Below, piece after piece: positions 1,985 to 39,003 of a DNA stretch of 64,000 nucleotides. Position 1 is the stretch's first letter, and every line of letters starts with the position of its first letter. Under the pieces are notes generated by a model. That model was not told the DNA's origin, searched no databases, and saw only the letters and a program-made list of their open reading frames with translations. The position numbers and the translations under genes are program-made. Source of the DNA: Callorhinchus milii (Eukaryota); NCBI RefSeq assembly GCF_018977255.1, contig NW_024704742.1, positions 94,924,001 to 94,988,000 of the forward strand, read 5' to 3'.

Positions 1985-2759
1985 TAATTCCCCTCCGATT
2001 AGAGATGAGAATAAAGTGGGACTTTAAAGTTTCAGATATAAAGCAATACAATCTTACCAGAATTCAGTTAAATAATTCACAACAATAATAAACTGACAAG
2101 TGATTTATTCTATTGCGATCAACTGGCTCTAATTCAAAATGCTTTTATTTTGTGGAGGGGGAGTCTTGAGAATACCCTAATAAGTACATGACATTGAAAC
2201 TTTTACATCAAGTATTGCTTCAGGCAGTTAAATAATGAGTGTGTTGATCCATCAGGGATGGATATTTGAGATATCACAGACAGCCATTAGCTCTACTTCA
2301 TTCTAGTTACTTGCTGTTGATGTATGGTATTTGTGCCTTGCATGAATGAACCTTGGACACAGTGCTGGGAGCCAAGTGAACCAACAATTAGATCAAACCA
2401 AAGCACAGTGAATTGTTTGGCTTCTACATAAGCGCATGAGCAAGCACGGAACAAGTAAAGACTGTTCAGCACATGAAACCTGCTCTTTTACAGACCAGGT
2501 ACAACCCATTGTCTGGACATCACTGTATCCACAACTACTGCATCTAGTTAATCTCTTGACAGAAAGTTCTGTTTAAGTATTGTCTGACAGTCAAAGGGGT
2601 TTGAAACCTCCAAAGTATCTATCCATCCAACATTTCTACTATTCAAAAATGGCTGTTCTGTTCTTCCTACTTCCCTCCTTCCAACAGGAATGATTGCCTC
2701 ATGGGTCCAGTTAATCATTTTACCACAATAATCTCCCATTTAATTTCTAACCAGATTTC

Positions 2760-3080
2760 ATAAAATTATAGAATTATACAGCACAAAAGGAGGCCATTCG
2801 GCCCATCATGTCTGTGCCAGCTCTTTGAAAAGAGCTATCCAATTCAATCCCACTCCCCCGCTCTTTTTCCCATAGCCCTGCAAACGTGTCCTCCCCAAAT
2901 AATTTTCTGATTATTTTTATGAGGTTCAATTGAAGCATCAGCTTTTGCTGGAAGACTGTTCTACGTCTCCAGTATAATGTGGGAAACAGTTATTTCCTCT
3001 AACCTCTAGGTTTGCCTGAAATCTATGTTCCTTACCCTAAAGGCCTTCCAGAACATACTGCTGTTGAAAATCTATTATTT
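2760..3080 (-). mobile_element. CR1-type 3' end (related pieces ~18110-18620, ~33210-33440, ~39366-39516, ~43190-43540)
   Basis: atagaatt tail repeat and ggaggccattcggcccatc motif, shared with 39366-39516. Confidence 0.65.
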
Positions 3081-4585
3081 CCAAATCATCCATATGGCAA
3101 TCAATTGGCCTTTTAGCAACCACGCTGCCACCAGAAAACACACCAAAGTATATCCAAGAGACTTAGGTAATCAATTAAAGTTATTAAAGTTAAGTAATCA
3201 ATTAAAGAAATTCTCTTATTGTAAAGTGTAGAGATTTTGAGGATACATGTTTCTGATGTAAAAAATCCATTCTGAGGATTTACAATCTAATGGTCAAGAT
3301 TACTTTATCCATTGATTTATGTATGGTTTGTGACTGCCGGGTGCCAAGACATGCCTACAAGATTTGTGCACACCTGACTGAATAATACATGAGCAAATTT
3401 GTATAGTGCTTTGAGACGTCCTCCTGACGTGAAAGGCGCAATATGAATATGTTGTATTGGATCCGTCACTGTATATAACGATAAGATGAATTTACTGTTC
3501 TTTATTTCCTTCCTTGGCATTTTCCTTGATGTTATGGTAACCTGAGGCACTGCATCATCAGGGTTTGTCTTCAGCTTCATTATTAATATTTTCTTATTTG
3601 TTTTCATATGTAAAATACATAATTTATTTTCACACCTATTGCCTACAAGGTTTGCACAAAGGACAGACCTAACTGAATAACACATGAGCAAATGCGCTTG
3701 GTGTGTTCTATGCAATGATTCACTGGCGTATATAGACACTCAGAGGTCACACACCAAGCATGCATCAGCAGATAAGGTAAGCTTGAACACTACATTATAT
3801 CCTAAATCTTCCCTGAAATCCAAGACCAAACACCAAAAGTACAAGTGAAACATCAACATAAATAGTTTTACTCTAGAAAATCTGCGGGCCCTCATGGCAA
3901 AGATGTTGACATTCTTAAGGCTAATCTCAAATCTAATCTCTCCTGGCTCATCTATCTCATGTACCTCTATGATGTTTCACCAAGTGGAAAGCAGCAAACA
4001 TTGTGTCAAGCCCAAAGGGAAAATCCAAATTGAACTTGGCACTTTCTACCAAATTGAGGAGTCATTGAAAAATTATGTGAGCTTTTCAAACTTGATCCAT
4101 TATTTCCTCAGAGAATCCCCAAAATGTCTGATTTCTGGGTTATCAATATCACTTGGTGGGTGCTGTACATGTGCACAAAGTGCAGGGATGCTGTATTCTG
4201 GAAGAGGAAACAGTGACTTGACTCAGCAGTGACCTGACTGACAATCTAGAAGTCGGTCATTTTTTCATTTGAGAAGCCAATGAATCAGCCTGAGTCCATG
4301 GTAGTTTTTTTAAAAAAAAATGAAATAAAACCGACATATAAGTATTTATAATTCTAGTTGTGTAAGAATAACTTTGCATTAAGGTGTTCTCAAGGCTAAT
4401 CTTTTAGTTGGTTTTGTTGAACGCACAACCAACTAAAAGATGAATTGAATTTTACTGTCCATAATTACTTCAGGTTTGGGTGCTCATACCTTTTAAAGTG
4501 AATTTTGGAACCATTTGGGCTGTTGGCATAAATTAACTCAGTGTTTACCATTAACTTGTATGAAGATGTTTAAAGATGTACTCAC

Positions 4586-4774
4586 AAGTGTCAGATTTGA
4601 GCATGGTGATCGAATTCCTGAAGTACTGTGGGTTCTCGATGACAGGAATCTTGGTCATTCCGATGATAACAGCATCTGGACCACCTTCTGACGAGGACGG
4701 GGTGTTGCTGCCGTTAGTTACGTGATGCAAAGGACTGGCGGAGTCATCATCAGTGCTGATAACTGAGGAAGGTC
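4586..4774 (-). CDS. NTRK2: TrkB-type intracellular juxtamembrane exon with Shc/FRS2 NPQY site (189 nt)
   Basis: tag acceptor, gtgagt donor, phase 1-1. [63 protein letters not shown], near-identical to TrkB. Confidence 0.97.
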
Positions 4775-9480: not shown

Positions 9481-10458
9481 ACATTTGTTTTAGAATAAAA
9501 GATGAATCAGGTTTCAGAGATCATTCCAAAGTTGCATGGCAAGACATTCACTGCAAAGAGCTGATTTCAAAGAACTTAGTGCCATTTAGCAGAAAGCAAT
9601 TTCTAAAATGCATTTATAATATGGTTTACTGAAAATGTATTACCCTCACTTTCAGGAATCTCCTGACATAAATCAAACACTCATTTCTAAAAGAGTGTGT
9701 AAGTACTGTGTCACTCAGATTAAATGGGGTCATTTAAATTGTTCATCAAAATCAGAATGAACAAGATTGAAAGAATGAACGAGATTGTTTATCATCGCCC
9801 AGCATCGATTTTCTTTTCCCAAATCCGCCTATTTCTTTTACCCAGAATATTTTAGCTTTCCAAAATAAAAGATTCAGTGGCATTTTCCTAGTCTTAAAAT
9901 AACCAGAATAAAACTGGTCAGAAGCTGTTACTTAGCCTAGGTTCATCTTTTTGGTGATAAATACATGGGGATTCCAGGAACAACCAAGACATCCTGTTAT
10001 AGTTTATTAACTATTACAGAAAAATAATAACCATTGAATTTACAATGAACTTTAATGTAATGGATGTTTTGTGAACTCTAAAGTTGGACTTTGTCATAAT
10101 TTTATTTAGCAATCGTTCTGAAGTGGACCTTCGGTGGTCAATATCCCTTTAAGAAGTTGCTGGTGAGACATTAATTATTAGAACAGATTCAGAAGTTAAG
10201 TCAAAAGCACAAGCTAAATCCCTCCTGAATACACCTAAACTGCTCCATTTACGACGTGAATAATGTGCACTATCGTAAATCCTAGCAAATTAAAAAGTGC
10301 ATAAGGAATGCCTGGCGGCGATCACAGGGCAGTAATCTGATCCAGGGGTCCAGATGATGTCATAAAGCTCATACCATTATGACTATTTAAGTCACCAAAT
10401 AACATTACTGTCTTGAAATCACATTTTTTAAAAAAAGACCAAGCCAAAAGGTGCTTAA

Positions 10459-19152: not shown

Positions 19153-20619
19153 TGTTCCTCATGAACATAATAAAAGTCCACAGTATTAGAGGGTAAATCA
19201 TTGAAAGTACATAGTGCAAGTACATAATGCCAGTTCTAAATGATGTGACATTTTTGTACCACTGAATTTTGATTCTTCAGCACTGCAAATAACAAACTAC
19301 TGTATTATTACACAACTATTTTCCTTGGTCTTCCTGCTATCCTTAAATAAGCTAAATGTTTGAATTCAGAATAGCTGCTCTCACCCTGAAACTCATATGT
19401 AATTCTCCTACCACATATTTATCATATAAGATAGAGAGATCAAGGGAGGTCACGCGAGCGAAGGAGAGCTAGAGAAAAGTCATATCATTAGGAATTCAGA
19501 GTCTACGATTGAATACAGCAACTTCACAAGTTCACAGAGAGGTAAAGGATGATTTATCTCATTTGATCTCATCCTTCCTGAATACCCACCTTTTAGCAAT
19601 AAACTGTATCTTAAATGAGCCCAGCATCCAGGTCTCAACCATTCTGTTCCAGCTGATCCTTACCATCTCTGTAAAGAAATATTGCTGATAACTACAAGTT
19701 ACGCCACTTAAAGGATCAGTAATCCTCCAGTCTTCCCTTGTCCTAATCTGTGTAAGATACAGCATGTAGAAGTAGCAATGTTGTGAGGTAGGCAGAGAGC
19801 TAACATATGAAGACATAATTTGGTGGGTTTTAATGCTCAACAGGGTAGATCCTGTGTGTCAATGACAATCCATTTGCTTTTGTTTCTTGACTTGCCTGAA
19901 GTGACAGCACTGTAGTTTATCATGAAGGCACTGCTACACTAGAATTCTTTCAGTGGAAGAAAAATGTATCCATGGATGGCTTTACAATCATACTCATTTA
20001 GGATTATGAGAAAACTGACACCACATTTATTGTAGCTAAACCGCCCTCATCATCCAGCCGATGGGGTGTGTATTTATTGACAAACGGCTTGGTGATTGCA
20101 CCAACAAGCTCAGTGAATAGTTCACTCCTATTGTAACAATCCATGTAACAAAATGAACCTGGAAGTTTCACCATCAAACAAAAATCGTTAGAGGATAGGG
20201 AATTCTCCATGTGAACAATAAGCTTAATAATCTGAATGATCACATTTTCTTAAATTGTCCTTTTGTACCCTAGAGAAACTTATTATAAGTAGCATTAACT
20301 CTCTGATTTGTGGCAAAATTGTAGTGACATTTCTTAATGTACAGACACAGCAATACAACAGCCCGTGGGAAGACCAAAAGAGAATATTAAAAACAAAGGT
20401 TGAATGAGTTCTTTCATTGTACCACTAAACAAATGCTGTTAATATTGGCATCAGCATTAACAGACAGCAATAAAGAAATGTTTCCTTCAAAGGGTTACAA
20501 ATATTGTAGAAAATAAATTGGATAGGAAAATTGTCTTGAATATCTTCACCCCCACCCCCTCACCCTGAAAGGCACATTTGGTAAAGGAACAATCCAGTGT
20601 ACAAATTATATTTATAGAT

Positions 20620-20870
20620 AAGGAAGGACACAGGTTCAAACCCTCATTTGAACTGAATTTACTTATCTCAGCCATAATGACCGTATAGAAGTGTCTATAA
20701 TTGGCTTCAGTGCCCCTGGGCTGTGAATGGGAAAATCAGCGAGTGTGCCCTTCCCTGATTTGGAAAGAGTATGTGTGTGTGAAAGGGACTGTTGTTAGAT
20801 CCCATGCCAATTTGCCTACCGATTCACAGTCCGAACTCATGCATGAAGAATGGCCTAAACACCAGAGTAT
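20620..20870 (+). mobile_element. Ancient LF-SINE-like element (related copies ~11690-11800, ~25130-25360 minus, ~41745-41900, ~60160-60620 minus, ~63400-63640)
   Basis: Recurrent motifs aattggcytcagtgcccctggg, tatccagtsac and catgaagaatggcc across copies; family name from memory. Confidence 0.55.
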
Positions 20871-20988
20871 GTCAACACCTCCAGGATAGAAATTTGGAGT
20901 TTTTCTAAAAAAAACTATTATTATTTTAGGTCAATCCCATATATCTGTCCACTTAATGCACTTTGTGGTTTCAAAATCGACAATCGAC

Positions 20989-21316
20989 GGAGTCCTGTAG
21001 CTCAGTGGTTAGAGCACTCGCTTTGCAAGTGAGAGACCTGCGTTCAATTCCAGGCAGAGGGCGAAACCTTGGGCAAGTTTCCTTACTCCACACAGAGCCC
21101 TAATAATAATCCCTCCAAAACCCAAAACAATAATAAATTGGTCATTTTCAATCTACGACTGTTTGTGGGACATTGCTGTGCGCAATTGGCTGCCGCGTTC
21201 GCCCACAAATATACAGTCAATTCACTTTACAGTGTGTTCTGTAAAGCGCTTTGGGACATCCTCCTGACGTGAAAAGCACTTAATCAAAATGCAAGGATTA
21301 TTATTATTATTATTAT
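20989..21316 (+). mobile_element. tRNA-Ala-derived SINE, young short form
   Basis: ggagtcctgtagctcagtggttagagc head; near-identical to the copies at 39004, 40378 and 50345. Confidence 0.92.
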
Positions 21317-22439
21317 AATGTGCTTTTTCCATCGCTGAAATTCCCAGTGCTCCATTCTTTTCTTTATTCTCTGTCTCTGGTGCCACTTCACCCACATTGT
21401 GTCCAAGAAGCATGAATACGCTTCCTGGCTAGTCACGGCAAGGCTCAACTAAATCAGGAATTCTCGTGGGAAAAGGGCTTATTGCGGAAAACAAAATGTC
21501 CCATGTAGTCATTATTGTGCTGTAGGGCATTCAATATTCTATCAGAATAAAGGGGAAAGCCTTCATCCAGACATACAGAATCTGTATATGTGTTGGGAGG
21601 TGTTGGTTGCTTTATTCCTTGCAAAAGTTGCTTATTTCTTTATATCAATGAAGTTAATTATGTTTGAAAACATGTTAATCTTGGAACTAATCCCAGAAGG
21701 ATGAAAGGTGCATGTATATGAGTGTACGGGGGAGGGGGAGGAGGTGTGTACTCTGAACAGCAATTTCCTCTATTTCATTGACCATCTTTCAATATGAGCT
21801 TTCAGTGGCCTCTCATGGCAGATTCAACTGATTATCCCACTGAAAGCTCGCATCTAGACCCCCTTGCACGCAGTCAGCCATAAATCCCCCTCCTTCCCTC
21901 AAAATATAGCTGCTGAAACCTTGTCCAAAAGAAACATAAAAGGCTTATAAAACAGCCCCCAAAAATACTAGGAGTAAAATTAAATACACAATCACTGAGC
22001 TCAGACTAAGCTCAAGGTCTTTCTTTCCACCTCTCACCCCATTGTGCACAGATGTAGGGCAGTTGCTTAGCACTTTGAAAGTTTAAATGGAGGAAAAGTG
22101 AGGGTAACACAAGAAAAACATTCAGAAGCAGACAAGATCTACAGAGCAGGGCACCTGCAAAAAGCTGAAATACCAATGCCATATCTTATCTCCACATATC
22201 ATATCCTGGAATTTTCTCTACAGGAAATGTCTCAATTACATTGTAATGGCAAGGAGCCACCTATCTCTCCCCTTCCTTCCAAAAAACACAAACTGAGGCC
22301 AACAACCTCTACCATTTGCGTGGGACTTCACTGGGTGAACATTCCTTTTTTTTTATTATGTACTTTATTGCTACATGGATCAGCAAAGGGGATTTGTCTT
22401 TTGGCATAGCTCATCTCAATTTCAAAAGCAACATAAATA

Positions 22440-22620
22440 AATAATAATAATCCTTGCATTTGATAGAGCGCCTTATCACGTCATTGAGATGTCCTAAAGC
22501 GCTTCACAGAATATACTGTAAAGTGAATTGACTGTATATTTTGTGGGCAAAATACTGCAGCCAATTGCGCACAGCAGTGTCCCACAAATAGTCATGGATT
22601 GAGTGACCACATTATAATTT
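22440..22620 (-). mobile_element. SINE 3' fragment (similar fragments near 24480-24642, 25420-25620, 26580-26690, 31655-31768, 39600-39745, 62260-62385)
   Basis: Shared gcgctatatcaaatgcaaggattatt tail and tgtgcgcaattggctgc body. Confidence 0.8.
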
Positions 22621-23544
22621 TTCTAAATTGATTAAAATCATTCCTTTTAAAAATAAAGTCAAAACATGTTACTTAAATTGTGCTCAAACATTAAAAATGG
22701 TTTATATTTAACAAGCTGTAATCTTAAATCTTAGATATGAACTGTTACCAGTTACCAAAGGTTTAGAAAAGAAAATTGAATAATTCAGCTAGAGTAATAA
22801 TGCATTTTTGAAAAACTGTGGTACATTGTCCTTATTTTATTTTGCTAGAAAACAGCTTTGCATATTACCTTTGAAGCTTGTGCACTTGCAGTGCTGGCAC
22901 AGGATAAGTGAATATGTGTGAGATAGCTTTTAGTGAAGTGCACCATTAAAAAAGGAAAGAAGAGTTTCATGTAGCTCAATGAGAGCCATTATTTTTCCTG
23001 GATTCCAGTGGAGAGTTCAATAACTATTTCCTTTCCAAAACCAGCTGTACTTGTTCAGCCACCGATTGATTGGGTGAGCACAAGGGCAGGAAATATGCTT
23101 CGGGCTCACCTCTTCTTAAAAAGAAGAGGGAATGAGTAACTGCATGTTTCTGTCTTAGCTAATGAAACGGATGTAGCTTTTGGATTTTATCTTGTACAGA
23201 AGATTGTACTAGTCCTGAATGAGAAGGCCATCAACAATGCTGGTTTTCTTGTCAAGAGCACAGCAGGTTTAAGAATTTCACTGCACAAAACTATGACAGC
23301 ATTTAGCTTGCAACACAATGCTTCCTCTGTGGCAATAGGGTCCTCATTCACACTGGGTTTTGCATACACTCAAAACCATGAATCATTTGAGCATCACAGA
23401 TCAGTGTTACATTAAAAGTTTTTTTTCCAAAAAAAAGTTATTCTAACAGTTACACTTACCATACATAATACATAACAAAAGACATAAGAATTGCAAATGA
23501 TAAAAATCATAATCTTAATTCCAGTAAAATAGCTGGAATCAATC

Positions 23545-23660
23545 ACAAACAAAATACAACAAATCGAAACAAAGTACAACCAAAACAAAAAGTACCATTT
23601 TTTTTATTGTTGGCATTTTCAATCAAAATAAAACAAAAGAAAAAGAAATAAAAGAACAAC
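23545..23660 (-). terminator. Candidate intronic polyadenylation signal
   Basis: Minus-strand AATAAA at 23603-23608, with a U-rich upstream element and a long GU/U-rich downstream element. Confidence 0.45.
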
Positions 23661-23908
23661 TGCACTCTGAATCAAACAGGATGGAAGACATTCAGCAAAC
23701 CTTATGGGCCGTTACTTAATTATAACCCTTGCCATGTAGAATTGAGTTGACCCATCAAAGGAAGTGCAGTGGAGCAGCAATAATGAAGTCAAATGTGTAA
23801 TTCGTTTTAGCACTTTAGGATCGCTTTTGTCATGCAATTAAACAGGCATTATCCTTTTTGATACATTTCCTTAAAATCAAATCTGCATGACAGCCTTCTC
23901 CACTTGTT

Positions 23909-23937
23909 TCAGCATTCCACAATATGCCGTTGTCGTC
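23909..23937 (-). CDS. Candidate alternative terminal exon (coding part) of a truncated kinase-less receptor
   Basis: Long pyrimidine tract plus tag acceptor (23938-23975). Phase-1 join to the TM exon gives GRQRHIVEC-stop; AATAAA lies about 300 nt downstream. No transcript evidence. Confidence 0.45.
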
Positions 23938-26900
23938 CTATAAAATTTAATAAAAGAAAAATGAAGGCAGAGCTGCAAACCTTGCATGACACTCTCTGGA
24001 TAGTGAAATGGATTAAATTTGCTATATTAAACCTATATTTTATGCTCCTACTCCTTCCCCTCTCCCCTTTTTCCATAATGATGGATGTATATATCTTTCT
24101 GCGAAAGACAGAATGAGACAGCAATGTTGTTTCCGTATATGGTATTATAGATAATTCTGCAGCCCAGGCTCATCGGTCACTATGTGATATGCCCAGAGCC
24201 AATTTGAATAACTTCTGAAACGCTGTAAAAGAGATCTGAGAGCTGGTGACAACATCAGGGATCTTTGTAGTTTTCCACTATAACTGGAAATTCATGAAAT
24301 CACAGAAAGAATAACAGAAAGCTAGAATATAGAAACAGGCTACTCAGACCATTTAGTTTGTACTGCTGTTTTTCTCCATCACCTAGTCTGATCTCACTCT
24401 CTGGCTCCCTTCCTTTTAATGTTCCTCTTTTTCTAACATACATCTAATTCATGTATTATTTATTAATAAATAAATAATAATCATTTGTCACTACAACTGT
24501 TTGTGAGACACTGGTGTGCACAATTGGCTGCCATGTTTCATCCATAAAAATACACAGTCAATTCACTTTACAGTATATTCTGTGAAGGGTTTTGACTCGT
24601 TTCGATGATGTGATAAGGCGCTAAATCAAATGCAAGGATTATTCTCTTTAATAGACATCAAGGACTCTGCTTCACCAGTGGTTTATGATAGAGAATTCCA
24701 ATTCATTTTCTGTGTGAAGAAATGTTTGACTAACCTCTTTTTTTAATTTGGCTTGAGATTATTTTAACATTATTGACTTGCCAACCAATGGAAATAACCC
24801 ATTAAAATGTCCCCTATTATAATGTTTCATTTAGCAAACCATTGGCACCCAGTTTATTTTCTTTGGAAGTACTTAAGAAATTTAAATGTAAATCTTTGAG
24901 AAAACAGATTTCCATCCAAGGTTAAAGTCCACTCACTCAACAATCAGATCAACAGTCCTTTAATGTTTTTTGTTCACTTAAGCAAAATGATTGATTAGTA
25001 TGAAACTGCTGGCAAACAGATAATTGACTACCTTTCACATTTTCTTCCTTTTTTTAAAAAAAGAATCTTCTAAAACTGCTCATGGATGCTGTGGTATTGT
25101 TCTAAGAGTTTTAGCAGGCTGGTTAACCATGACCAATCCTGCTTTCACCCAAATTAAGACACATATTTCAGCAATCTTCACGGGATAATGGCAGTGATCA
25201 AAGGATCCTGGTACCATTGCTCACTGCAGTGCAATTGGTCTCCAGCATTCAGTTCCCCCACGGCTCTGGCTAAAATAGGATAATTCAAACACAGATCTTT
25301 AACATGAACCCTTTCAGTGGTTTTGGCTCATGCTCATTACATAGTGCAATTACCTAGTGAGCAAACGGGAAGCCCCAATTATTTTTTTTCCAATACTTGT
25401 TTTCCAAAGATGCTGCATTATTAGGGAACTTCTGCTGGTATCCTGGCCAACAACCTCCAAATAAAATTTTCATGACTGTTTGTGAGAAAATTGGCTGCTA
25501 CGTTGGCTTACAAATACACCATCACATTTTACAGTAAATCTTGTGAAGCGCTCTGAGAGATCAGCCTGACATAAAAGGCCTTATACCAAATGTAAGGATT
25601 ATGATAATTATATTTATTATTATCAATGTTCTCCTCACCCAACAAAGTCACACGTTTCAGAATCACAGGATGATATTGGGCAGAGAATGTCATTCTCCTG
25701 ACGCGAAAGGCACTATATAAATGTCACTTATATTGTACTATTATTGAAGACTTTATATTACAATATCACAAAGTGGTGCAAGAACACAGTAATAAAGTCC
25801 AAGGATGCTTATATCATTGCTCTTCTAATTCAAAACAAAAGGGATATTTCACTCTGTGCATTTGTAATCTTCAACTATTTTGACAGAAAAAACAAAAGAT
25901 TTTTTTTCTCTCAGAGATCCTGAAAGTCCTGACTATTTTTTCCATAGCTTCTATGGCTTCTAAAATGCTCTCAGAGATCCTGGTTTAGAAGCTATGATCT
26001 CAGGCCAATTACTGCTTTTCAGTCAGCAGCTGGTGCTACACACTGACTTCCTTTGCCTTGCCTGAAGGTCTCTGCACTGCTAGGACATCTTGATGATGGG
26101 ATGCCGCTGAAACTCCCAGCAGTACACAGAACGGTTCACCAGCAGGGCAGATGTGAGCTGTCGGAAGAACATCAGCAGGTGCACTGGGGCTGCTAACCCC
26201 TTAAACTGGAAAATCTTTGTCAAATTTTGAAATATGGTGGGACCCACATGCTAAATTGCTTGATTTACCAAATGGAATGCTAGATGATACCCTACAACTT
26301 AGACCACAAAATACAGTAAATCCTGTGAAGTGCTTTGAGACATCCTCCTGATGTGAAAGACACTATATCAAATGCAAGTAATATTATTATAAAAATATAC
26401 AACTTTTGTTATATCAAAATCAACCTCATAGAGTAGGGGGGCTGAGGGGAAATATCAGTTTTTTTGTATTGCATCAGTGTGGACTAATTAGGAAATTCTG
26501 ATCCTCTCATTTAAAAATGTTAAAACCAATCAATCAAATGTTTCTAAATGAGAAGATTCCAGGCAGTTAAATTAGTTAATTAATCCTTGCATTTAATATA
26601 GCGCCTTATCACATCTTTGAAATGTCTCAAAGCACTTCACTGAATATACTGTAAAGTGAATATTTTGACTGTATATTTTGTGGGCAAAACTTGAATTCAA
26701 GTTCTACTTGAATTGAGCAAGTTACTTCATAAATGAGTCTTGCACTCCAGCAACACCCCTCACTTGCATTACCTTGGTCTCCAGCATTCAGTGCCTGCAG
26801 TCAGTTTTGCTGACTTGTGCACAGCTCTATGGGAAAGATAATTGAATACTTCTCAGTATGTCTCGTTCATAGACATAGGATCAGCATCGAAAACCATTTT

Positions 26901-27447
26901 CTGGAAGAGGCTTCTGACTAAAGCTGCCCTGTAATTACCAGTTACATCCATTTCCAGGATGACCTAGAACACTGGGTGCAAAAGATCGAGTAAACATAGA
27001 CTTTGAATATTAGAGCACTTGTACCTCATTCCCTCACCACAATTTGAAATCAAGAATGTCCCAGTGAGCAGAGAATGTTCTTCCATCTGCTAGAGATGGT
27101 ACAGGACTGCTGTCCATGTCCAGACGTGCACTTCAGCATCTAGTGCCTAGGTGAAACTGCTCTAATAATGTTACAGAACAGTGCCACTGAGGTTGGTTAC
27201 TGGGCAGTTCAGCCGTTTCCCAGGCATGGGACATGGTGCACCTCTGTCAGGATGCATCACTGTCCTCTGCCCTCCTCAAAGTTAAGCCATGTGTAAATAG
27301 GGGAGATTTAGCTTCCCCATATGGTAGGTTTGACACAATATTTGCACCACAGCAGAGAGCTCCGTAAAGTTCCATGTTAACATTAATAACTCACAGGGAG
27401 TGGTGGCCTATGTAAACTCGGGAGAACAGATCAATGTACAGATTTTA

Positions 27448-27620
27448 TGTGTCTTACCTCTCATTGTAAGTTTCCTACGTCTCATTGAAGGTATCTGATC
27501 TTAGTGTAGATACCTGATCTGAGTGTAGGTGTCTTGCCTCTCATTGTAGGTGTCTGATCTCATTGTAGCTATCTTTCTTCCCATTTTAAGTATCTTATAT
27601 TTCAGTTTAGTTGTCTTATT
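27448..27620. repeat. Degenerate tandem repeat (gtgtcttacctctcattgtag-like, ~18-22 bp)
   Basis: Recurrent tctcattgta(a/g) units. Confidence 0.7.
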
Positions 27621-28259
27621 GCTCACTCACAAGTTAAATCTTAAGGCTGGCAGTAAGCCATGCTTATGCATCTTGAAAAAAAACCAGAATAACAAACATT
27701 GATGGCACAGATTGTTGATATACATTGCCTCATGCAAGCAGTTTGACAATGCACTGCACTTGCTTTCCACACTTATTTTAAACAAGTCAGTTTCTTTATG
27801 TTGAGAAATCTATCTCCAAGCTATACTATTACTATACAATATTGGTAAAGTTATGATAGATGTTTTCAAAAAAAATCAAGATCAATTTGTAAGTTCACAA
27901 CATACTATGCCATGGCTTTACGTACTGATAATGATCTGTACATAAAATAATTATTTACTTTGTTTAAAAACTATTTTTTGTTGCAAACTTCAACATAGCA
28001 GTACCTATCCTTGCATCAAAGGAGAGCTCTTGATTAAGTTTTGTGTGTGGATACAGGGAACAAAGCAGTCATGGGCTCGACCAACACTCACTATTCTGAA
28101 GCAAGTGTGGACTTACTCCTACCTCAGCAAAAAGCTACACCCTCCCCACCTACTGGCTACACTGGTACTGCAGTATTGCCATTCTAAACTGAGCTTCTAT
28201 AGAATTTATGATGAGCAATTGCCACCATTTTGCTGCTTTGTCTCATTAAAATAATAAGC

Positions 28260-28660
28260 CTATAATTATAATCTTTGCATATGATATAGCGCCTTATCAC
28301 GTCATCGTAAAAAGCTTCACAGGATTCTACTATTGTGTCAGTGACTGTGTATTTGTAGGCAAACGTGGCAGCCAATTTGTGCACAGCAATGTCCCACCAA
28401 AAAGCCATGAAGTGAATCATTGATTTTAATTGCAGGATTTTGGGCCTAGACCCAAGGAGGAACTCCTTGCTCCTTTCAAATAGTGCAACGGGATCTTTAA
28501 CATTCACCTGACCTCACCTTAACTTCTCCTCTTACGAACGGCACCTTCAACAATGCAGCACACCTCCAGCACTGCACTGGAATATCTGCCTGGACTGTGA
28601 CAACACACAACCTTCTGACTCAGAAGTGGGAGTGCTACCAACTGAGCCAGGCTGACACCT
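28260..28660 (-). mobile_element. Older Deu-domain-type SINE
   Basis: gggatctttaacattcacctga core, head and L2-like tail. Confidence 0.72.
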
Positions 28661-28974
28661 GCCATGACTAAGGCAGTGACGCGCTGCATAGGAACCTACA
28701 GAATTGGTTCTCCACTCTGATTATCACTTGCACCTCATATGGGAGCACAAGCTATTCAATGCTTTCCTATCCAAAGACACTTTCAATTGTATTTGAAGGG
28801 AAACACTGATGTACTTAAAATTTAACATAAAATAAGGATTTTTTTGAGATTGTATTTTAATTGTGTTTCATTTATAGTGTGACCTTCACCATCAGAACCC
28901 TTCATAAAGAAAGTTATTGCAAAGAATTATGAATGGTGATGACGTACTTTCTTAAGTTCTGTCCGTGCTTTTAG

Positions 28975-29540
28975 AATACAAATTTACATTTATTTAGCAT
29001 TTTTCATGTTGGACATCTTTCATGTTGGAAAAACATCCCAGAGCGCATAACAGCACTGGCTCCGAACTGGGGGTGGGAGCCAAGGGCAGTGGGGAGGAAA
29101 AAGATGAATGAAAGCACAGTCAAAGAGATAGGACTTAAGATCATCTTGAACAAGTTGAGGAAGGGAAGGGTTTCAGAGGGACTCGGGGATCAAGTTCTAG
29201 AGAGTAGCAGAAAGGGGGGCAGAAAGAGGGGCAGAAAGCCCGCTTGCTGATTGTGGGTCGGGTGAAGCAGGGAACACGGAGGAGGAAAGTGCTCCCTGAA
29301 GGGAGCAGCCGGGCTGGTAGGTTTGAATCAGAACAGCAGTGGTTCTGCAATGGAGAGTGGAGCCAGAGAGATAGATAGAGATGGGTGTCATCCGTATACA
29401 TGTGGAAGTTAACCTCTTAGTGAAAGTTCACCTTGTGTCTGGGGATGACATCGTCGAGTGAGAGTATATAGATCATGACGAGGAGGGGTGTCAGCATCTG
29501 AGGTGAGGTGACTGGACGCAAGTAGGAGAACCTCTTTTTA
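28975..29540 (-). mobile_element. L2 LINE fragment, heavily deleted
   Basis: MYTDDTHLYLS (YADD-like) joined to 3' UTR and tail sequence shared with the other L2 copies. Confidence 0.75.
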
Positions 29541-32500
29541 GAACAGTTTTGTTTAAATGTTGTCAACTTATGATGTTTGGAGTAGTCTGGGAAATGATGC
29601 AGAGTCTGACAATGAGCGAGAGCTGAATTAATGCACGTACTTCATGCTCAGTACCCTTAGATTAAGGCTGGTGTTTCTGTGGATGACAATTGAGCTTCCG
29701 TGCATTGTCAGCATCAATAGATGATTCAGTCTCATATTCCCATCTACGACATCGAGATTAACAACAACAAGATTATATTTGTATAGTGCCTTTCACGTCA
29801 GGAGGACATCCCAAGGCGCTGGGCAGAGTACAGCATTTCAGACAAAATGATTAAGATTAAGATGAAAATATCCAAAGACCAACAGAATTGGATGTTACAA
29901 AAAGAAGCAAATGTTAATCAAATTCCTCGCAATTGTCTTATTTTTAAAATTGGCCGCTGTAGTGGGAGGCTCTCTCTCAGGCTTTGAATTGCCTGGGAAA
30001 TGGAATACTGCTACTCAATGAAAGAACGGGGAAAAGCCCACTTATACTAACAACAGCACGTTACTTACATCACTACCACACCACTCAATACTTGTGAAAG
30101 ACTTCAGGTATCAGAGGTCCCTTTTTCTCTTTTTATTATAAACCCAGTGGAGATTGGAAAACAAACTTCACAGCAATAATTGTGTGTGTCCGTGCCCTGT
30201 ATTAAAGCTTTACAGTAGCCCACAGTTGCACAATATCAAAAATTATCCCCAAGTTTCTATCAACGAAGAAACGCATAGCTTGAGCAATCTATAGAGGTTT
30301 CTTTGATGCAAGTGGACAGACAGACATAGGACAAAACACTTCTGACCTTGAAACTGATTTATTGATTATCCAGCGCTCCTCTTAACAGAGCGAAAACTGA
30401 AACCGTTCTTACTGAATCATTAATGAATCCACATGCAGCGAATTTTCCATCATAGCTCTCATTTAACTATTGCATTCGCCAAGCTTTCTCCTTTGACAAC
30501 AACCAAAGAAGAAACAAAACCAAATTGAAGCAACAGTGCACCTTTGTATTGCTTCAACTCCTAAATCTTGTTCTCTTTTAATAAAGAATAAGATTCTTTT
30601 GTAAACTTTCAACAAACACTGAATATGATTGGAATTGCAACATTGCAGCATAGCCAATTTGTAGACTTTCTTCAACCTTTTTCCCCCTCCTCTTGAATCG
30701 CTAACCCCTTAACGATAGAGTCTTTTTTAAACATTATTGCTTGACAATTTAAACCGGGTAACTGCCCATGATCATAACATTACTATTGATGTAGCACCTC
30801 CTTAAATGATCAATGTCAAACCATTTCAGCTTTTACAACTGGCTCTAATCTTTTCATGAAAAACAGATAGGAAATTACATTTAAAAAGTAAACATCCTCA
30901 ATCATCAGTTTTGTAATTTTAACAATACAAGTTGTTGAAAACATTGAATTCGAGATCTTGCTTTTAAAGTGAGAAGATTAAGAGCAATCTGACTTATTCG
31001 CACCGAACTGTTTATTATAGATCATGCCCTCGCTGCACCATATGTTGTGTACTTTCTGGTATTCAAATCATTTAGAGGTTGTCTGTACATTCAAGGTGAA
31101 AGCATGGTGATCTTTGTTGTAATCAATACAACAGTGCCACTTTACATGGCCACAAAGGAGCACAGAGGCTGCGCTCTAATAAAATTGTGGCTTACTTCTG
31201 AAGCAATTGCAATGTCTGGACACACATTTAAAAATAGTGTTCTGTACACCATAGTAATCTCATTTTTCAGGTCTAATTTTAGGACTGCTGACGTCAAACT
31301 ACAGAGAAAGTTTTTTGCAAAAACACAAAGGTCACTGATAGTTGGAGGAAAGTACAGACAATCAGTATGTGCCAGTAGTCGTTCCATCTTGGGTCATACA
31401 ATCTCTTACCAGATCAAATTCATACCTATAGATTTTAGCTCTTGAAGTATTAACAGAGTCTAACCTATTCCCTAACAATCATTGTGCACATTGGTTTCAA
31501 GTGGTTCTCAACAGATACAAGTGACCTCTGTCACTGGCATGACATATTCTCTTAATCTGTGCTTTGTTAATTCTTGAGCACTGAATGTCAATGTCCACTA
31601 CTAGTCAGTTATAAGACTCATACAGTAAAACTCCACCCTGCCAGTATAAACTATACTTTCGCCCACAAAATACACAGTCAACCATTTTGCAGTATATCCT
31701 ATGAAAGCGCTTTGAGACGTCTCAACGATGTAATAGGGCGCTATATCAAATGCAAGGATTATTATTATACTTAGACAACAGTGAAAGACACTTCATGAGA
31801 TTAAGCATGAGAACAAGCAGGGTAGGAGATGGGAGGTGGTGTCAGGAGGGAGGGGACCAAAAGCTTCCAAATACTTCAACCTTACACTCACACTCTCGGC
31901 TTTTAGAACCCATCTAAAAATCGAATGCAAAGACATAGACTTTTAGAAAAAAAACTCAGTTTTGAAGCCGAGAAGGAGAGAACAAAGCAGAGATATTTAG
32001 GGAATGAGTTCTACAGAGTGGGGGAGGAGAGAAAAAGTGGCTGAAAACTTGTCCACCAATGGTGGAGCTGAGGGGATGAGGATGTGAAACAGGTATGAGT
32101 TAGCAGAGTGGTAAGAGTGGGTGGGGGAGACATGCCGCAGGAAATCCCAATGGTGGGGTGGGGCAGGGGCATTCGAGCATTAGAGTGAGGAGGAGATTGC
32201 AAAACTAATTTTATCTGATGACTTATACAATATCATCTGAGAGTGCTGCTTATAATTGGCTTCATTATTCTCAATATAGCGCTGTAACATGATATGACTG
32301 CATCAATATGGTAAAACTATCCACCTTCATTTGTAAGAACCAAACTTTCCAGCTTGGCTAAAAATATCAGGAACTAAACAACATGCTATTCTACTGTTTA
32401 TTGCGTTGCTGAAATAATCATTTTTATATAGCCAGTCAGGCTGGCTTGTGCTCATGGTGGTGAGAGAGGGGATGTGGAATGTGGTATAAAGTATGTTGGT

Positions 32501-34179
32501 CCCTATAAGTATGAGTCTTCATGGTTTGCAATTTGGAACTGTATTTAGAAAGTCACAATGTCAGATCTCTTACTGAATTGGTAAATGACTTACCTCCCAG
32601 GCATGAAGGAAAATATGACAACAACAACTTGTATTTTTATAGTGCCCTTCACGCAGTGTACCATCTCGGAACACTTAACCTGGGAAGAAGCCCAGTTGTC
32701 CCTGCCATATACATTTCTGCGTAAGGTAATGCTGTTTTTAGTGCCCCATTGTACGTAAATTAGTCATCATACAATAGTACAGCTCCTGTGGTCTGCACCT
32801 AATTACATAAAAAGCTGTTTGTAAGAACGCATTTTGAAAGTTGCCATGGAAGTTCAGTACTTGAGGGGTTGATTGTGGTATCATGCAGTATCACAATTAC
32901 TGGTACTAGTCTAGTACCATGCAACCTCTGCAAGTCACACAGTAGCTGTGTTTTTGATTTACGTAATCATCTTTATGTTTGCTACACAGATACATGTTTC
33001 AAAGGTAACAGTCTTATTCCTTGATCTAGTTTCTCACACATTACTGAAATAGATAGTATTAAAGGAGAACAAATCTCCAGTAACTCCAACTATAGTGCTT
33101 CTCCCAGAACATTTCAAATCTCCTGAATAGGAGAAGAGATATTCCTGTATTGTCAGACATACAGCAGAGTGTTGCTGAGATGAAGGGGTGATGTTCTGCA
33201 TTAAGCCGCATAGGAACATAGGATAATAGGAACAGGAGTAGCCCATTGAGCCCTTCGAGCCTGTTCCACCAATTTATTAGATCATGGCCGACCTGTGCCT
33301 CAACTCCAATTTTCCGCCTTTGGCCCATATCCCTTGTTACCCTTACTTAACAAAATCGATTCACCTCAGTCTTGAAAATGTGAATTGGTCCAACATCCAG
33401 AGCCTTTTGGGAGAGATAGTTGCAGATTTCCACTATCCTTTGGGCAGCTGTCATTCTGAAAGGGGAGCAGCATCTGCACCAGGTCTGCTACTCCATTGCC
33501 TTTATTGGTACTAGCTACAAATGCATGCAAGGTCAAGCTCAGTGCTGTGAGCCAGTCGAGTGAACAGACCTGAAGCTCAATCTGCATTTTAGACTAAGGT
33601 ATGCAGTTCCACCAGTGCTTTCCCACGTGTTTCCAATGTTTTTTTCATGGCAAATGTCAGATTTGGAGACACAGACATGGAAAAAAACAAATTCCATTTG
33701 GAGCAATAAATGAGCCAATAAAGGGGAAGTTCAGAGTCAAACTGGGCAAAAACTGTTAAGTTCCAATACATCCAGGTGGCATTGGTTTATTCAGTTATGT
33801 GATGATCCAAACCTACTTAGGAAAACTGTCAGACCATCTGACATTGATGCTGATTAAATCTGCTGAGCTGCTGCCAGTTAAGTAGAAGCCTATGTTCCAT
33901 GATTTTCTTTTCATTACAGGCTATTCTTTCTCAAGCTAAGATTTCCCTTAAAACTCAAACCACTAAGCGCAACACAATAAATTTACCTACAGATATTCCA
34001 CAGTGTTTCACCTGAATGAAGTTAGTAAATCCCAGTCAAACTTTTGTAAATCACTAACCAAATGTTTATATCAGTATAGCCTCACTGTAGAGAAAGTTAC
34101 CCAAAAATATTCCTCATCACCCAGTTTGAACAGAGAGTGTTCTGCTACACTTCAGCACAATGTAATAAAACTTTCTTAC

Positions 34180-34279
34180 CTTTCATTCCAAACTTTGCAT
34201 GCTTTCCAAACTTGAAGATTATTAGTACCAGTATCAACCCAGTGAATACCAATGCTGTGGTCCCAACGACAACATACAC
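34180..34279 (-). CDS. NTRK2: TrkB-type transmembrane + KFG exon (100 nt)
   Basis: cttctttctctcag acceptor, gtaaga donor, phase 0-1. VYVVVGTTALVFTGLILVLIIFKFGKHAKFGMK. Confidence 0.96.
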
Positions 34280-35699
34280 CTGAGAGAAGAAGTTTGGTAC
34301 AGGGTTAGGCATTGGGAGTCAGCTTTGTTTTACATGATCTTTAATCATTCTGCATTGGTGATGATGATCCAGAAAATGATTGATCTTATACTATCTTTGT
34401 AACTTGTCCTTATTTACTTTATGATTTTATACATCCAAAACAAATTTCAAGCATAAGTTGATAAGAAATATGAGGAATCAGGAAAAAAAATGCAGCCCAC
34501 TGCAGTCCATTCACTGTCCCAACATAACATTTAATTCTATATTAAATACACATAATGATTTGGCCTCTTTGAGTTGGTGTGATAAATTACTTCCAAATGA
34601 CAAATATGCTGTTCATAATTAAAATACATTTATAAATAATCTAAATATTCAAAACAATCTGGGGAAAGTTAGAAGTAAATTCACAGCCCTTGCAATTCTA
34701 GCACAGAATGAGCCTTGCCAAACCGCTGGTGCCCTCGTGATACTCCTGCCAAGAGAAAGCAATACTCTCACTTCCACTCTTCAATATAAGCAAACGATTG
34801 GAAAGATTTTCCTCATGCTCCTCAGTAGGAACAATGAACCAGCACAAAACAAATACAAAAGAAAATCAACCCACCGCGACTTTCAGGATGGAAAACGATC
34901 GAGCTATGTAATTTGTTGATCACTTCGCATTTTGTTTCTGTGGGAAACTATTGCAGTCCAAAGATTGTGATTTGGTGCATTTTAAGCAATAGTTTTTGAG
35001 CGGATGCCAAATTGATTTACAACGTTTATATTTATGCTATCCTTACTTCCATTTATACGGTGCAAATCAATGTGCTGGCAAAACCACTTTCCTCAAGGTG
35101 ATCTCAGCAACCAGGCTGTATTCTGAATCACTTTACAATAGTTTGTTTTACACCCAGTTTAGCTTTTTTGTGTTGATTCAACACAATAATATATCCAGGG
35201 ATGTATTACATTACAGCATCCAATTGTACTTTGAATAACCCCAATCATTTTTTTTGCTTCTATTGTCTTGCCTTCATAGATTATTCCAAAAATTATGAGC
35301 AAAGACGCTTTTCCCGACATCTGGACTAAATTTCCTATTTATGTCCTCTGATCCTACTTTCTTGGCTGAAAGTAATAATTTGGGTTTACTTTATCTATAT
35401 CATTTTTAAATATTTGGATGTGTTTTCCCCTTTGCTACGTTCTTTCCATACTCTGAAGCTCATGTTTCTCGAATTACAGGATAACAAGAGATGATTATCT
35501 CACTTATATCTGAGACCGATCATTATATATTGTTTTAGTATAACTGTTTTGTGGCAAAGTGGACAAAACTGAACACAGAATTTTCAATATTATCTGACCA
35601 GTCCATTTTAAAGTCATGGCCTAATTTCTGTAGCATTGTCCAGCTAAGCTGTCAGAGCCAAGTGTCAATCCTATATATGTATATATATATATATATGGA

Positions 35700-36035
35700 T
35701 GACGCCAACAGTGCAGCTCTCCCCCAACAGTTTACTGGAGTGTCAGCCTGCCCTATATATGTTGGCGTCATCCTTCAGTTGAGACTTTGAAGCAAAGTCC
35801 TGTCTGCCTGGTCAGATGGATGTTAAAGATCCCGCTGCACTATTCTAAAAGAGAAGGCAGTTTCTCTAGGTGTCCTGGACAACAATCTGCCAGTGGGACA
35901 CTGATGTACACAAATTGCTACTTGTTTGTCTCCAAAATACATAGTCATTACACTTTACAGTAAATCCTGTGAAACACTTTGGAGACAGGTTCCTGACATG
36001 AAAGACATTATATAAAATGCAAGGTTTATTATTAT
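35700..36035 (+). mobile_element. Older Deu-domain-type SINE
   Basis: gtcctgtctgcctggtcagatggatgttaaagatccc core plus tail. Confidence 0.7.
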
Positions 36036-38220
36036 TAAACCATCCTAGAATTAATTTACCGATTGCCATTGCTTCAACAGATTGAATGTGACATCCTTGA
36101 CATTACTCCAGATCCCTTTGTAAGCCTCCCTGCTCAAATTTCCATTCGTTGAAAAATTATGCTCCACATTTTTTTCCATAGCTGTCCAAGGCACCGCTGG
36201 CTAGATCAATGTCTGCAGCTACTGGCTTTGGGTAAAACTATTTGAACACAGACAGGAGATGTTCCCACAGCACTCATCAACTGAAACATCTCAAAGGCTT
36301 TAAATTCTACCCTTCCTTAGCCTCTATAACTATTTTGGCTTAAAATTTAAGACTCCACATAAAATTGTGGAAAACTCCCAAATTCAGGATTAAGTTGGAA
36401 CCACTTTCTCACAGAACAGTTTGCAATGTATGAAAGCAGCAGCTAGTCCTAAAATACTGAAAAATGTAATGCATTTCCAAAGATTTCAAAGGGTTTTATT
36501 GTGAGACCACAATGTATTCTCACAATAAATGCTTTATTTAATTTATGCACTTATATGCAAATGGGTCCTTTCAAATATTAACCTTTCACTTTGCCTTTTA
36601 TGACAAGTTAGTCACCATCAACACATTGAATTTAAATACATTTTCAGCACGTGATTAGTAGAATCACAGAAATTTACAGCACCGAAGAAGGCCATTGTGT
36701 TTGTGTTGGCTCTTTGAAAGGGAAATCCATTCAATCCCATTTGAGGTATATTTCCAAGTTGTAGTGGTAACGTGGATGTTCTGTTTTCAATTACAGTCAT
36801 AGTGTGACTCCTTTGTAAGGTTGATCACCTCATTTGAAACCACATCTTGCAGCAAAGGAATACTTTGTGGTGAAAAGTTGGATGCAAAAGGATGATCTCC
36901 TTCCATGCTTGGTGTTGATGATCACAAGGAAATCTGTTCAGTATTGAAGGATTCACTTTCAGCTTCTCTCTGATCTATGCGGTTTTTTCTCTCCCGAGCC
37001 ATGGTCTCCTCGACAGATTTGTTTCCTGATGCCATTTGAATGGAGGAACCAAGATGACAATGCTGAAATCTTTGGAATTAGCTCCTCACTGCCAAAAGCC
37101 CCTAGCCAAAGACTGATGCATATTTTTTCTTCTCCTTTGATTTAAGCACGAGTGGCACAAGCTCCAGCGGTTGGTGTCATAGGTACAGCACAATTAAAGA
37201 CTTTCATTTTTTTTATTTTGACACCGTTCCCAAGAGTTGTTGCAATTTGGTGTCTAGGTTTTGGCTTTGCATCATGTAACGTTTGTGTGATGTATGCTAA
37301 CATTTGAGCTTGTCTGAGCTTCAGATTCTGTTCTTGAGTCCCTTGGTTGTAAGCAACAGTTCTGCATGTGAATGCGTCGATCAGAACAAAAAGGTAGCCA
37401 CTGTATTAAGGACACTATTTTAATACAAATCTTGTCATGACACATACAAAGTCCTCCATTCTTCATATCTTGTTATTGTATGAGTGTTTAGTGGAATGTG
37501 CGATATCAGCTGCCTCCTGTTTCTCTAATAAGCTACGAAAATAGAAATTAATTCTATTCCTTATATATTTGGCCTCGGAGGTCAGCAATTCTGCAAATCT
37601 ATGAAATCTGTCAGAAATGGACCTTCTGTAAGTGTAGCAAGCTAAAAGTAACTCTACTTTAAGCTTAGCATGCTCAAATAACACACCGTAAATGTGCATC
37701 ACATAAAAAGAAGCTTTTGAGAATACAATTTTCAGAATCCCTTCTCTATGATGTAATTGGTTAGTGTCTTTTTCTCTGCTTATGTTACTGTTTTGTGTAA
37801 ATATATACATAGAGCACTTATACCCCAGTATTTTGTGATTTTTAGGTAAGTCAAATGTCAGCAAGAATGTATGGAAAACGATCAATATTAAAGGGTATGG
37901 GGAAGAAGTAGGTAATTGGGATAAGAGCAGTTAGCTCCAAGGGAGTAGCTGGCACCAACATAAACTCAATGGATTGAATGGCGTCCTTCTGTGCTGTATG
38001 ATTCTAACAAGAAAATTATATTTTAATCCATAGACCTTTCCACAGACTATATGGTTTGCTCTATCACAGCTACGGCCAATGTATTTCATCTCCTGGGAGA
38101 ATTGTCTGCATAAAATACCTTTGACCCTGTCTGCACCTACAGCCCCGCCCCCCCATATTGATCAAGCAAAACTCTTTTATCAATACTAGCCGTTCACTCC
38201 ATGTGACAGTAAATACTTAC

Positions 38221-38312
38221 AGCAATGCTATCTTCCTTTTTTTCAGTGACGGGTGGATTGTCTGAAGGCATTTCGCTAGTACCTGAAGACGGTTCAGCAC
38301 TGTAATAATCTA
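38221..38312 (-). CDS. NTRK2: TrkB-type stalk exon (92 nt, or 89 nt with the second AG)
   Basis: cag/tag tandem acceptor, gtaagt donor, phase 1-0. (V)DYYSAEPSSGTSEMPSDNPPVTEKKEDSIA, ending like non-mammalian TrkB EDSIT. Confidence 0.85.
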
Positions 38313-39003
38313 CTGGTGAGACACAAAATATTTGTAACCTGTTGTTAATGTGTTTCACCAACGAAAAGAGCTGAGCTCATACAACCATATGCTCCTGAGG
38401 TCATTATAAAACTGCACCAACCTCTCTCTAGGATGATACATATGCAATTGTTTTTGCTGCTTTAAAAATATTGAACTGAAAACTTTATGCTTTCCACCAA
38501 AAATATGTAGGCTTTTAACAACTGTTTTTAAAAAGTTACTTCTGATCCAAAATGTAGATTGAGGATTGCAGTGTGGAAGTTGTTAACATGCAATTAAAAC
38601 AAGCCCTAACAGTGATCAGCAATTCATCACTAAAGGCTGGTAAGTACTGCACTGAGTTGCTTTCCTGATAAAAACCTGTTAAAGATGGGGACTTAGATGG
38701 AGGTAAGGATTCCTCCTTATCTCAGTCAGATGGTTAAACAACCACTCATGATATTTGAGAAGCTGCAGATTGTGATAGGGCAGAGGGCTGCTGGACCTCA
38801 CTTGAGGAAGACAAAGCAAGGACAACAGCCCTCTGCTCTATCACTCAGATATCATTATTTAGCATGAATTTCCCTGGCCCAGCCTGTGCAATATCTCACA
38901 GAATGGCAGCAGATATCCATTAACTCTGATTGAGAGTTACATGAAGCAGCACAGGTGCCTGGGTGTGATGAATTTTTGGAGTTACTGTCCTTCAGAGCAG
39001 ATA

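What the first reader, a model, noticed from the sequence alone, without database searches (positions are those of the whole stretch)
23460..23975. Candidate novel terminal exon encoding a kinase-less TrkB with tail GRQRHIVEC*
Seen: on the gene strand a strong acceptor (ctctgccttcatttttcttttattaaattttatag, ending at 23938). In the phase left by the TM exon it gives ...KFGMK-GRQRHIVEC-TGA. About 300 nt later is AATAAA (23603-23608), with a U-rich upstream element and a long GU-rich downstream element, all in repeat-poor DNA. A consensus donor (ATG/gtaagt at 23460/23459) lies about 140 nt beyond the signal, so the exon could be terminal or internal. Known: truncated TrkB isoforms (T1, tail FVLFHKIPLDG) arise from a terminal exon in this same intron. 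Inference: this lineage or paralogue may make a truncated receptor with an unrelated tail.
Basis: partly seen in the sequence, partly recalled or inferred. Interest (0 to 1): 0.7.

Follow-up and report, generated by a model that had tools for sequence, protein, structure and literature searches.

The report
Cartilaginous-fish kinase-less TrkB receptor tail
Elephant shark, skate and two other likely sharks or rays splice a short last exon into the gene for the brain growth-factor receptor TrkB, encoding a receptor with no kinase and a tail unlike the mammalian truncated form (T1), which likely acts as a BDNF decoy and suggests the decoy role is older than the T1 tail.

Summary
The exon is real. 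The window is Callorhinchus milii ntrk2 (TrkB). The predicted protein, ending KFGMK-GRQRHIVEC, is already a UniProt entry (V9KMQ8) under the generic receptor name. Six Logan proteins, the representative identical to little skate TrkB over 464 aa, end GRQRHIVEW. Contigs from four studies and three organisms fit the 34180-23937 junction: directly in one, through graph overhangs or shared depth in three. The first 221 nt of the exon, mostly UTR, are about 95% identical in two other organisms, more than the TM exon (85%). It behaves as a terminal exon: one contig ends at the AATAAA, another runs unbranched through the 23460 donor into a UTR of at least 1.9 kb. It sits in the same intron as TrkB.T1, but its tail shows no homology to tetrapod or teleost T1 tails, and no intact T1 exon lies in the intron. 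It works like T1 (inferred) but is not T1. No paper searched describes it. New variant of a known kind; interest 0.4.

The parts
34180..34279 (-). TM exon of ntrk2 (VYVVVG...KFGMK-G), phase-1 donor shared by full-length and truncated forms
23938..23972 (-). Polypyrimidine tract and AG acceptor of the terminal exon
   Evidence: used in contigs
23909..23937 (-). Coding part of the terminal exon: (G)RQRHIVEC plus TGA
   Evidence: skate GRQRHIVEW
23716..23936 (-). Conserved block (coding part plus proximal 3' UTR): 8 and 10 substitutions (4 and 3 gaps) in 221 nt in organisms D and B; holds one TGCATG at 23836-23831
23603..23608 (-). Proximal AATAAA, likely poly(A) signal of the short form
   Evidence: X2 contig ends at 23611; cleavage site not shown
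23520..23597 (-). GU/U-rich tract after the AATAAA, likely downstream element; includes a weak T1-like stretch from 23558
   Evidence: function inferred
23454..23460 (-). Consensus donor G|GTAAGT, crossed without a branch by the X1 contig
22001..23602 (-). Extended 3' UTR of the long form (lower end is the edge of what was laid; contig length projects to about 21290); further AATAAA at 22841, 22369, 22357, and beyond at 21616, 21368
   Evidence: X1 records 1 and 2, depth 42 and 59 against 1-5 in unique intron bins
22917..22995 (-). Second block in the long UTR matched by a low-depth contig of organism B (8 substitutions, 1 gap in 79 nt)
   Evidence: record 24
4586..4774 (-). Competing full-length-specific juxtamembrane exon (GPSSVIS...NPQY...KSDT)

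Best explanation
This is a spliced alternative exon of elephant-shark ntrk2, likely terminal, that encodes a kinase-less TrkB ending GRQRHIVEC, is shared with skate, and likely serves as the cartilaginous-fish counterpart of TrkB.T1 by capturing BDNF and dampening full-length TrkB. Shown: the TM-exon donor (34180) joins either this acceptor (23937) or the full-length exon (4774); the stop comes after 8 new residues, before the Shc-site exon and the kinase. Partly shown: transcripts end near the proximal AATAAA or run on into a UTR of at least 1.9 kb (contig ends are weak hints; no poly(A) tail seen). Inferred: the choice differs between samples; the protein reaches the membrane with an intact ectodomain, binds BDNF/NT-4 and acts as scavenger and dominant-negative partner, as described for T1. 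T1-type tail signalling is not expected, since the tail differs. Speculative: the donor 143 nt past the AATAAA could bind U1 and damp the proximal site (mechanism recalled, untested).
For: V9KMQ8 (P0001, 467 aa) maps exon by exon to the window and ends in the exact tail. Six of six members of the skate-type Logan cluster end GRQRHIVEW on contigs of 1127-3358 nt; P0006 is 100% identical to Leucoraja erinacea TrkB over 464 aa. X11 record 9 has the TM exon at letters 1800-1900 and the new exon from 1901; X1 record 2 and X6 record 25 carry 28- and 30-letter overhangs at the exon start, as a graph branch after the TM exon would give; X2 record 22 (1937 nt) shares its depth, 86.4, with the TM exon and ends at 23611. 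Substitutions in the 221-nt block are rarer than in the TM exon (8/221 vs 15/101, p=0.0007; 10/221 vs 14/101, p=0.005). T1's decoy roles rest on the shared ectodomain (PMC8934854 section 6).
Against: No protein-level, tissue or functional data. The runs are not on record as RNA (spliced joins suggest they are) and are contigs, so ends and isoform ratios are hints only. The 34180-23937 joint row was not among the 15 of 1286 joints printed; three of four runs support it indirectly. The conservation test is biased upward because the aligner sets the block's end. An 8-A run follows the AATAAA, so the X2 end could be internal priming. 28 of 36 chondrichthyan proteins read are full-length forms; no shark-named protein with the tail was found. 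For T1, the specific tail was essential for its own signalling, so 'works like T1' covers only the decoy part.
Confidence: 0.8

Rival explanations
1. The exon is the true orthologue of the T1 exon: one ancestral gnathostome terminal exon whose coding start changed by an acceptor or frame shift in one lineage. Compatible with the best explanation; it concerns origin.
For: Same intron, same donor phase, short tail, own stop, long UTR with several candidate poly(A) signals, as described for T1. MAFFT pairs QRHIVE with medaka QRIPVE. No intact T1 exon elsewhere in the intron.
Against: Tail ranks 191-710 of 1261 AG-led peptides against T1 profiles, shuffle p 0.17-0.60, while 7 of 8 teleost tails beat the background maximum against the tetrapod profile. 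Nucleotide core test rank 357 of 1801. The R in medaka QR is N or S in the other 7 teleost tails profiled.
Confidence: 0.45
2. Independent origin: cartilaginous and bony fishes each gained their own terminal exon in this intron (convergence).
For: No detectable peptide or nucleotide homology, although each tail type is conserved within its own clade.
Against: Short tails lose homology signal easily; identical position and architecture are more simply explained by one origin; no outgroup data.
Confidence: 0.45
3. The tail is incidental: selection acts on the RNA (splicing, poly(A) and protein-binding elements), and the peptide is conserved only because it lies in that block.
For: The UTR part is as conserved as the coding part, about 95% over 221 nt; the last residue differs (C vs W).
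Against: 7 of 8 tail residues, the length and the stop are kept in skate, whose TM exon peptide is only 18 of 33 identical.
Confidence: 0.35
4. Poison cassette: a 478-nt internal exon closed by the 23460 donor that triggers nonsense-mediated decay to tune full-length TrkB.
For: The donor is a strong consensus, 1 of 2 in the intron; decay targets are rare and contigs drop rare variants.
Against: X1 record 2 crosses the donor unbranched; X2 ends 150 nt before it; X11 and X6 contigs end 385 and 429 letters after the junction.
Confidence: 0.05
5. Cryptic splicing noise or a gene-model artefact.
For: None of the RefSeq-named chondrichthyan entries read carries the tail.
Against: Same exon in three organisms plus skate proteins, at depths far above unique intron bins in X1.
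Confidence: 0.02

Closest known systems
TrkB.T1 (NTRK2 exon 16, tail FVLFHKIPLDG)
   Same: Full ectodomain and TM, alternative last exon in the intron after the TM exon, same phase, own stop and 3' UTR, no kinase (PMC8934854 passages).
   Different: 8 new residues RQRHIVEC/W instead of 11, with no detectable homology; intron of 29 kb against two 50-kb introns in mouse (PMC12435732 passages); no tight TGCATG cluster.
Teleost truncated Ntrk2a (tail CVLFQNIPVEVVSR and variants)
   Same: Same position and architecture at the protein level.
   Different: Scores as T1-like (13-28 against the tetrapod profile); the shark tail does not.
UniProt V9KMQ8_CALMI
   Same: It is this protein, residue for residue over the exons in the window.
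   Different: Named only 'BDNF/NT-3 growth factors receptor' in the UniRef line seen; nothing there marks it as a truncated isoform.
TrkB.T2-type and T-Shc-type truncations
   Same: Kinase-less TrkB forms.
   Different: GK-starting tails such as hamster GKQSHACFAS look like donor read-through (inferred; T2 label recalled), which here would read GKKVLLHCAEV. Forms ending WPRGSPKTA keep the Shc-site exon (T-Shc label recalled), which this form lacks.

Membership tests
NTRK2/TrkB gene | Exons encode the protein named ntrk2 for this species, with TrkB juxtamembrane sequence | tested here: met
   XP_007904999.1 (P0121) and V9KMQ8 map to window exons; no tree was built
TrkB.T1 | Shares ectodomain, TM and first juxtamembrane residues with full-length TrkB | tested here: met
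   P0001 and P0121 share the sequence up to KFGMKG where compared
TrkB.T1 | Alternative exon between the TM exon and the first full-length-specific exon, with its own stop | tested here: met
TrkB.T1 | Own 3' UTR with several polyadenylation sites | tested here: inconclusive
   Short and long contigs and several AATAAA; no poly(A) tails seen
TrkB.T1 | 11-residue tail FVLFHKIPLDG or a recognisable homologue | tested here: not met
TrkB.T1 | BDNF scavenging and dominant-negative action on TrkB.FL | not testable with these tools
   Inferred from the shared ectodomain
TrkB.T1 | Tail-dependent Ca2+ release and RhoGDI1 association | not testable with these tools
   Described for T1; tail differs here
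T2-type read-through truncation | Tail encoded by the intron directly after the TM donor (feature recalled) | tested here: not met
   Read-through gives GKKVLLHCAEV; the tail exon lies 10,242 nt away
T-Shc-type truncation | Keeps the NPQY Shc-site exon (feature recalled) | tested here: not met
   That exon (4774-4586) lies downstream of the stop
NMD poison cassette exon | Spliced onward from a downstream donor | tested here: inconclusive
   No branch at 23460 in X1, but contigs drop rare variants

The most novel reading that the evidence does not exclude
The shark exon is the ancestral last exon of truncated TrkB, and the bony-vertebrate T1 tail was born inside it: the GU-rich element just past its poly(A) signal (from 23558, reading C-I-L-F, 7 nt, I-P-A against teleost C-V-L-F-Q-N-I-P-V) gained an acceptor and became the FVLF-HK-IPL coding exon. 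The famous T1 tail would then be an exonised poly(A) element.
Probability: 0.1. Interest if true: 0.65.

Novelty: new variant of a known kind. Interest (0 to 1): 0.4.

Why it matters
TrkB.T1 is the main adult TrkB form in mammals, and it is unsettled how much of its action comes from ligand capture and how much from its tail (PMC8934854). A kinase-less TrkB with a different, equally frozen tail in chimaera and skate means that truncation is either as old as jawed vertebrates or evolved twice. It offers a natural tail-swap test of decoy versus tail signalling. It also matters in practice: probes to shared ntrk2 exons in skate or shark would count both forms, and the RefSeq-named entries read here show only the full-length one.

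Tried and rejected
No whole genome is held. Only 22001-38400 was laid, with 4 of 21 runs, so the distal UTR end and the full-length junction were not seen in reads. A protein search on residues 405-467 of P0001 returned only the two C. milii clusters from 10 candidates. The 50%-representative search gave 32 hits, none with the tail. Clusters of bowfin, coelacanth, lungfish, gar and sturgeon listed no truncated form with a tail (one 212-aa partial), so basal bony-fish tails stay unknown. Ungapped T1 scan of the intron: best 15 of 60 (AG-phase) and 27 of 60 (any frame, with a stop). T1-like stretch at 23558: rank 1 of 29,358 and 0 of 1000 shuffles in a scan designed after seeing it, but rank 2-1556 with 7-4430 equal or better control hits across 18 settings once all columns were scored; mouse-primer alignment not significant (15-30 equal peaks, shuffle 0.2); kept as a weak lead. 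Rfam on 20500-24600: only a tRNA-like SINE head and one sub-threshold hit. Rbfox control through the UTR TGCATG: chance of one such site is 0.09, and UTR sites did not mediate the effect in mouse (PMC6715404 passages). Three look-ups of earlier findings were empty. No structure or complex job was sent: a 9-residue tail gives nothing to fold.

Full report
Locus. The gene lies on the minus strand. Its Ig2 exon matches Callorhinchus milii TrkB at 100%, and tblastn maps the C. milii proteins V9KMQ8 (P0001) and XP_007904999.1 (P0121, named ntrk2a) onto exons from 51140 to 34180, then 23938-23912 for P0001 and 4775 onward for P0121. The N-terminal exons and the kinase exons were not found in the window. 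Jawed vertebrates have three Trk genes (PMC4898815, passages), so this is the ordinary ntrk2.

Observation. The signals are selective: 12 of 1801 AGs in the intron match or beat this acceptor and 4 of the 12 have AATAAA within 500 nt (three of them cluster at 29068-29346); the downstream donor is 1 of 2 G|GTRAGT sites.

The protein exists in databases. P0001 (467 aa) ends KFGMKGRQRHIVEC. That V9K-series entries come from C. milii transcript assemblies is my recollection, not a tool result. A Logan cluster has 6 of 6 members ending GRQRHIVEW, on contigs of 1127-3358 nt, the representative on 26 contigs; identical ends on different contigs point to a real stop. The representative is 100% identical to Leucoraja erinacea TrkB over 464 aa. 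Of 36 chondrichthyan proteins read, 28 continue into the full-length exon, 7 carry this tail, 1 carries GLDHHITE and none has a T1-type tail (15 of 17 members of one cluster were listed).

The junction in contigs. Four of 21 runs, from four studies, were laid on 22001-38400. They are not on record as RNA, but X1 and X2 skip the 3941-nt GT-AG intron upstream. X11 (organism D) has the TM exon at letters 1800-1900 and the new exon from letter 1901 of one contig; 34179/23936 equals 34180/23937 because both sides offer a G. X1 (organism A) and X6 (organism B) have contigs that start the exon with 28 and 30 extra letters. For X1, 28 is what a 31-mer graph branch gives when both downstream exons begin GAC; X6's TM contig stops at 34179. 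In X2 the exon contig (1937 nt) has the same depth figure as the TM exon, so I read it as one mRNA-length contig. The joint row itself was not among the 15 of 1286 printed. Branching in X1 and X6 but not in X2 and X11 hints that isoform choice varies by sample; contig depth cannot measure it. The eight substitutions that X6 and X11 share in the TM exon give the shark/stingray-type peptide LACTGLILMLIILKF (compare), so B and D are likely non-skate elasmobranchs. Their tail peptides were not read directly: none of the listed differences falls in the coding part, but only 6 of 10 and 5 of 8 were listed.

Conservation. The block 23716-23936 has 8 and 10 substitutions (4 and 3 gaps) in 221 nt, against 15 and 14 in the 101-nt TM piece (Fisher p 0.0007 and 0.005; with gaps 0.008 and 0.028). 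The aligner sets the block's end, which favours the block. A second block, 22917-22995, is matched by a low-depth contig of B. Between chimaera and skate the tail keeps 7 of 8 residues while the TM exon keeps 18 of 33.

Terminal or internal. X2's contig ends at 23611, three letters before the AATAAA; an 8-A run there allows internal priming. X11 and X6 contigs end 385 and 429 letters after the junction. X1's contig runs unbranched from 23936 to 22584, across both the AATAAA and the donor, and a second contig at depth 42 continues from 22460 past the edge of the lay, against depth 1-5 in unique intron bins; its length projects to about 21290, at the next SINE. The best reading is a last exon with short and long UTRs. 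A rare cassette use of the donor is not excluded.

Relation to T1. T1 is defined by an exon between the TM exon and the first full-length exon, an 11-residue tail conserved among rodents, human and chicken, and its own UTR with several poly(A) sites (PMC8934854, passages). Among 287 of 307 fetched proteins with the KFGMK-type motif, tetrapods show FVLFHKIPLDG or close variants and teleosts CVLFQNIPVEVVSR or variants; 7 of 8 teleost tails beat the background maximum against the tetrapod profile. RQRHIVEC ranks 191-710 of 1261 and is no better than its shuffles; a nucleotide test gave rank 357 of 1801. No intact T1 exon is in the intron. So it fails T1 membership on the tail and matches on architecture. 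Both tails have stayed fixed within their clades for roughly 400 million years (dates recalled), which suggests a discrete event, an acceptor change or a second origin, rather than drift. I cannot separate these.

A weak lead. The GU-rich tract after the AATAAA reads C-I-L-F, 7 nt, I-P-A from 23558, with no AG before it. A scan built after seeing it ranked it first. With all columns scored it ranked 2-1556 over 18 settings, with 7-4430 equal or better hits in 88.7 kb of control sequence; nucleotide tests gave 11-27 of 979 windows as good. It is not established.

Mechanism. Shown: splicing and the open frame. Inferred: surface expression and BDNF binding through the unchanged ectodomain, giving ligand scavenging and inactive heterodimers with full-length TrkB, the best-studied T1 mechanisms (PMC8934854 section 6, first part). 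The same section says T1's own signalling needs its specific tail, so that function should not be assumed here. The C-terminal VEC/VEW resembles a class II PDZ ligand only loosely (recalled), and the variable last residue argues against it.

Literature. Nine searches listed no paper on a truncated TrkB in cartilaginous fish; one search found 0 papers with the peptides or the accession. Seen as passages: PMC12435732, PMC6214035, PMC12686537 (states that zebrafish has truncated trkb2), PMC6715404, PMC4898815, PMC13694853 (skate ntrk2a; 'truncated' and 'isoform' occur 0 times). PMC8934854: abstract, passages and part of section 6. Other papers were seen as listings only. No supplements were read, and older subscription papers on fish Trks are outside the library; either could hold a mention.

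Verdict. A real, conserved, apparently undescribed cartilaginous-fish truncated TrkB, already deposited as a sequence. New variant of a known kind; interest 0.4.

Noticed in passing
window 33787-33812 (-): UniProt A0A4W3ITT0 (P0122) ends GLDHHITE, using an AG about 370 nt after the TM donor. Only low-depth unspliced X1 pieces were listed around there; probably a gene-model artefact.
   Followed up: partly
window 23532-23558 (-): T1-like reading C-I-L-F, 7 nt, I-P-A inside the GU-rich tract; not significant under neutral scoring.
   Followed up: yes
window 23831-23836 (-): A TGCATG (Rbfox motif) in the conserved UTR block; 15 such sites are spread over the intron with no mouse-like cluster.
   Followed up: partly
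window 23454-23460 (-): Strong unused donor 143 nt past the proximal AATAAA; could be a U1 site that damps that signal.
   Followed up: no
P0005, P0006 (skates): The skate TrkB transmembrane segment is strongly changed (18 of 33 identical to C. milii) while catshark and stingray keep the usual sequence.
   Followed up: no
P0106, P0232, P0249, P0257, P0266-P0268, P0306, P0307, P0312: Teleost Ntrk2a has a T1-homologous tail (CVLFQNIPVEVVSR and variants), so T1 spans bony vertebrates, wider than the rodent-human-chicken range quoted in the review.
   Followed up: partly
window 20989-21327 and 22424-22634: Copies of a SINE-like repeat (up to 25 copies in the window; tRNA-like head at 20995-21057); one sits inside the long 3' UTR.
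   Followed up: partly
window 6795-9489 (-): Broken ORFs resembling a LINE endonuclease/reverse transcriptase (family recalled, not searched) in the same intron.
   Followed up: no
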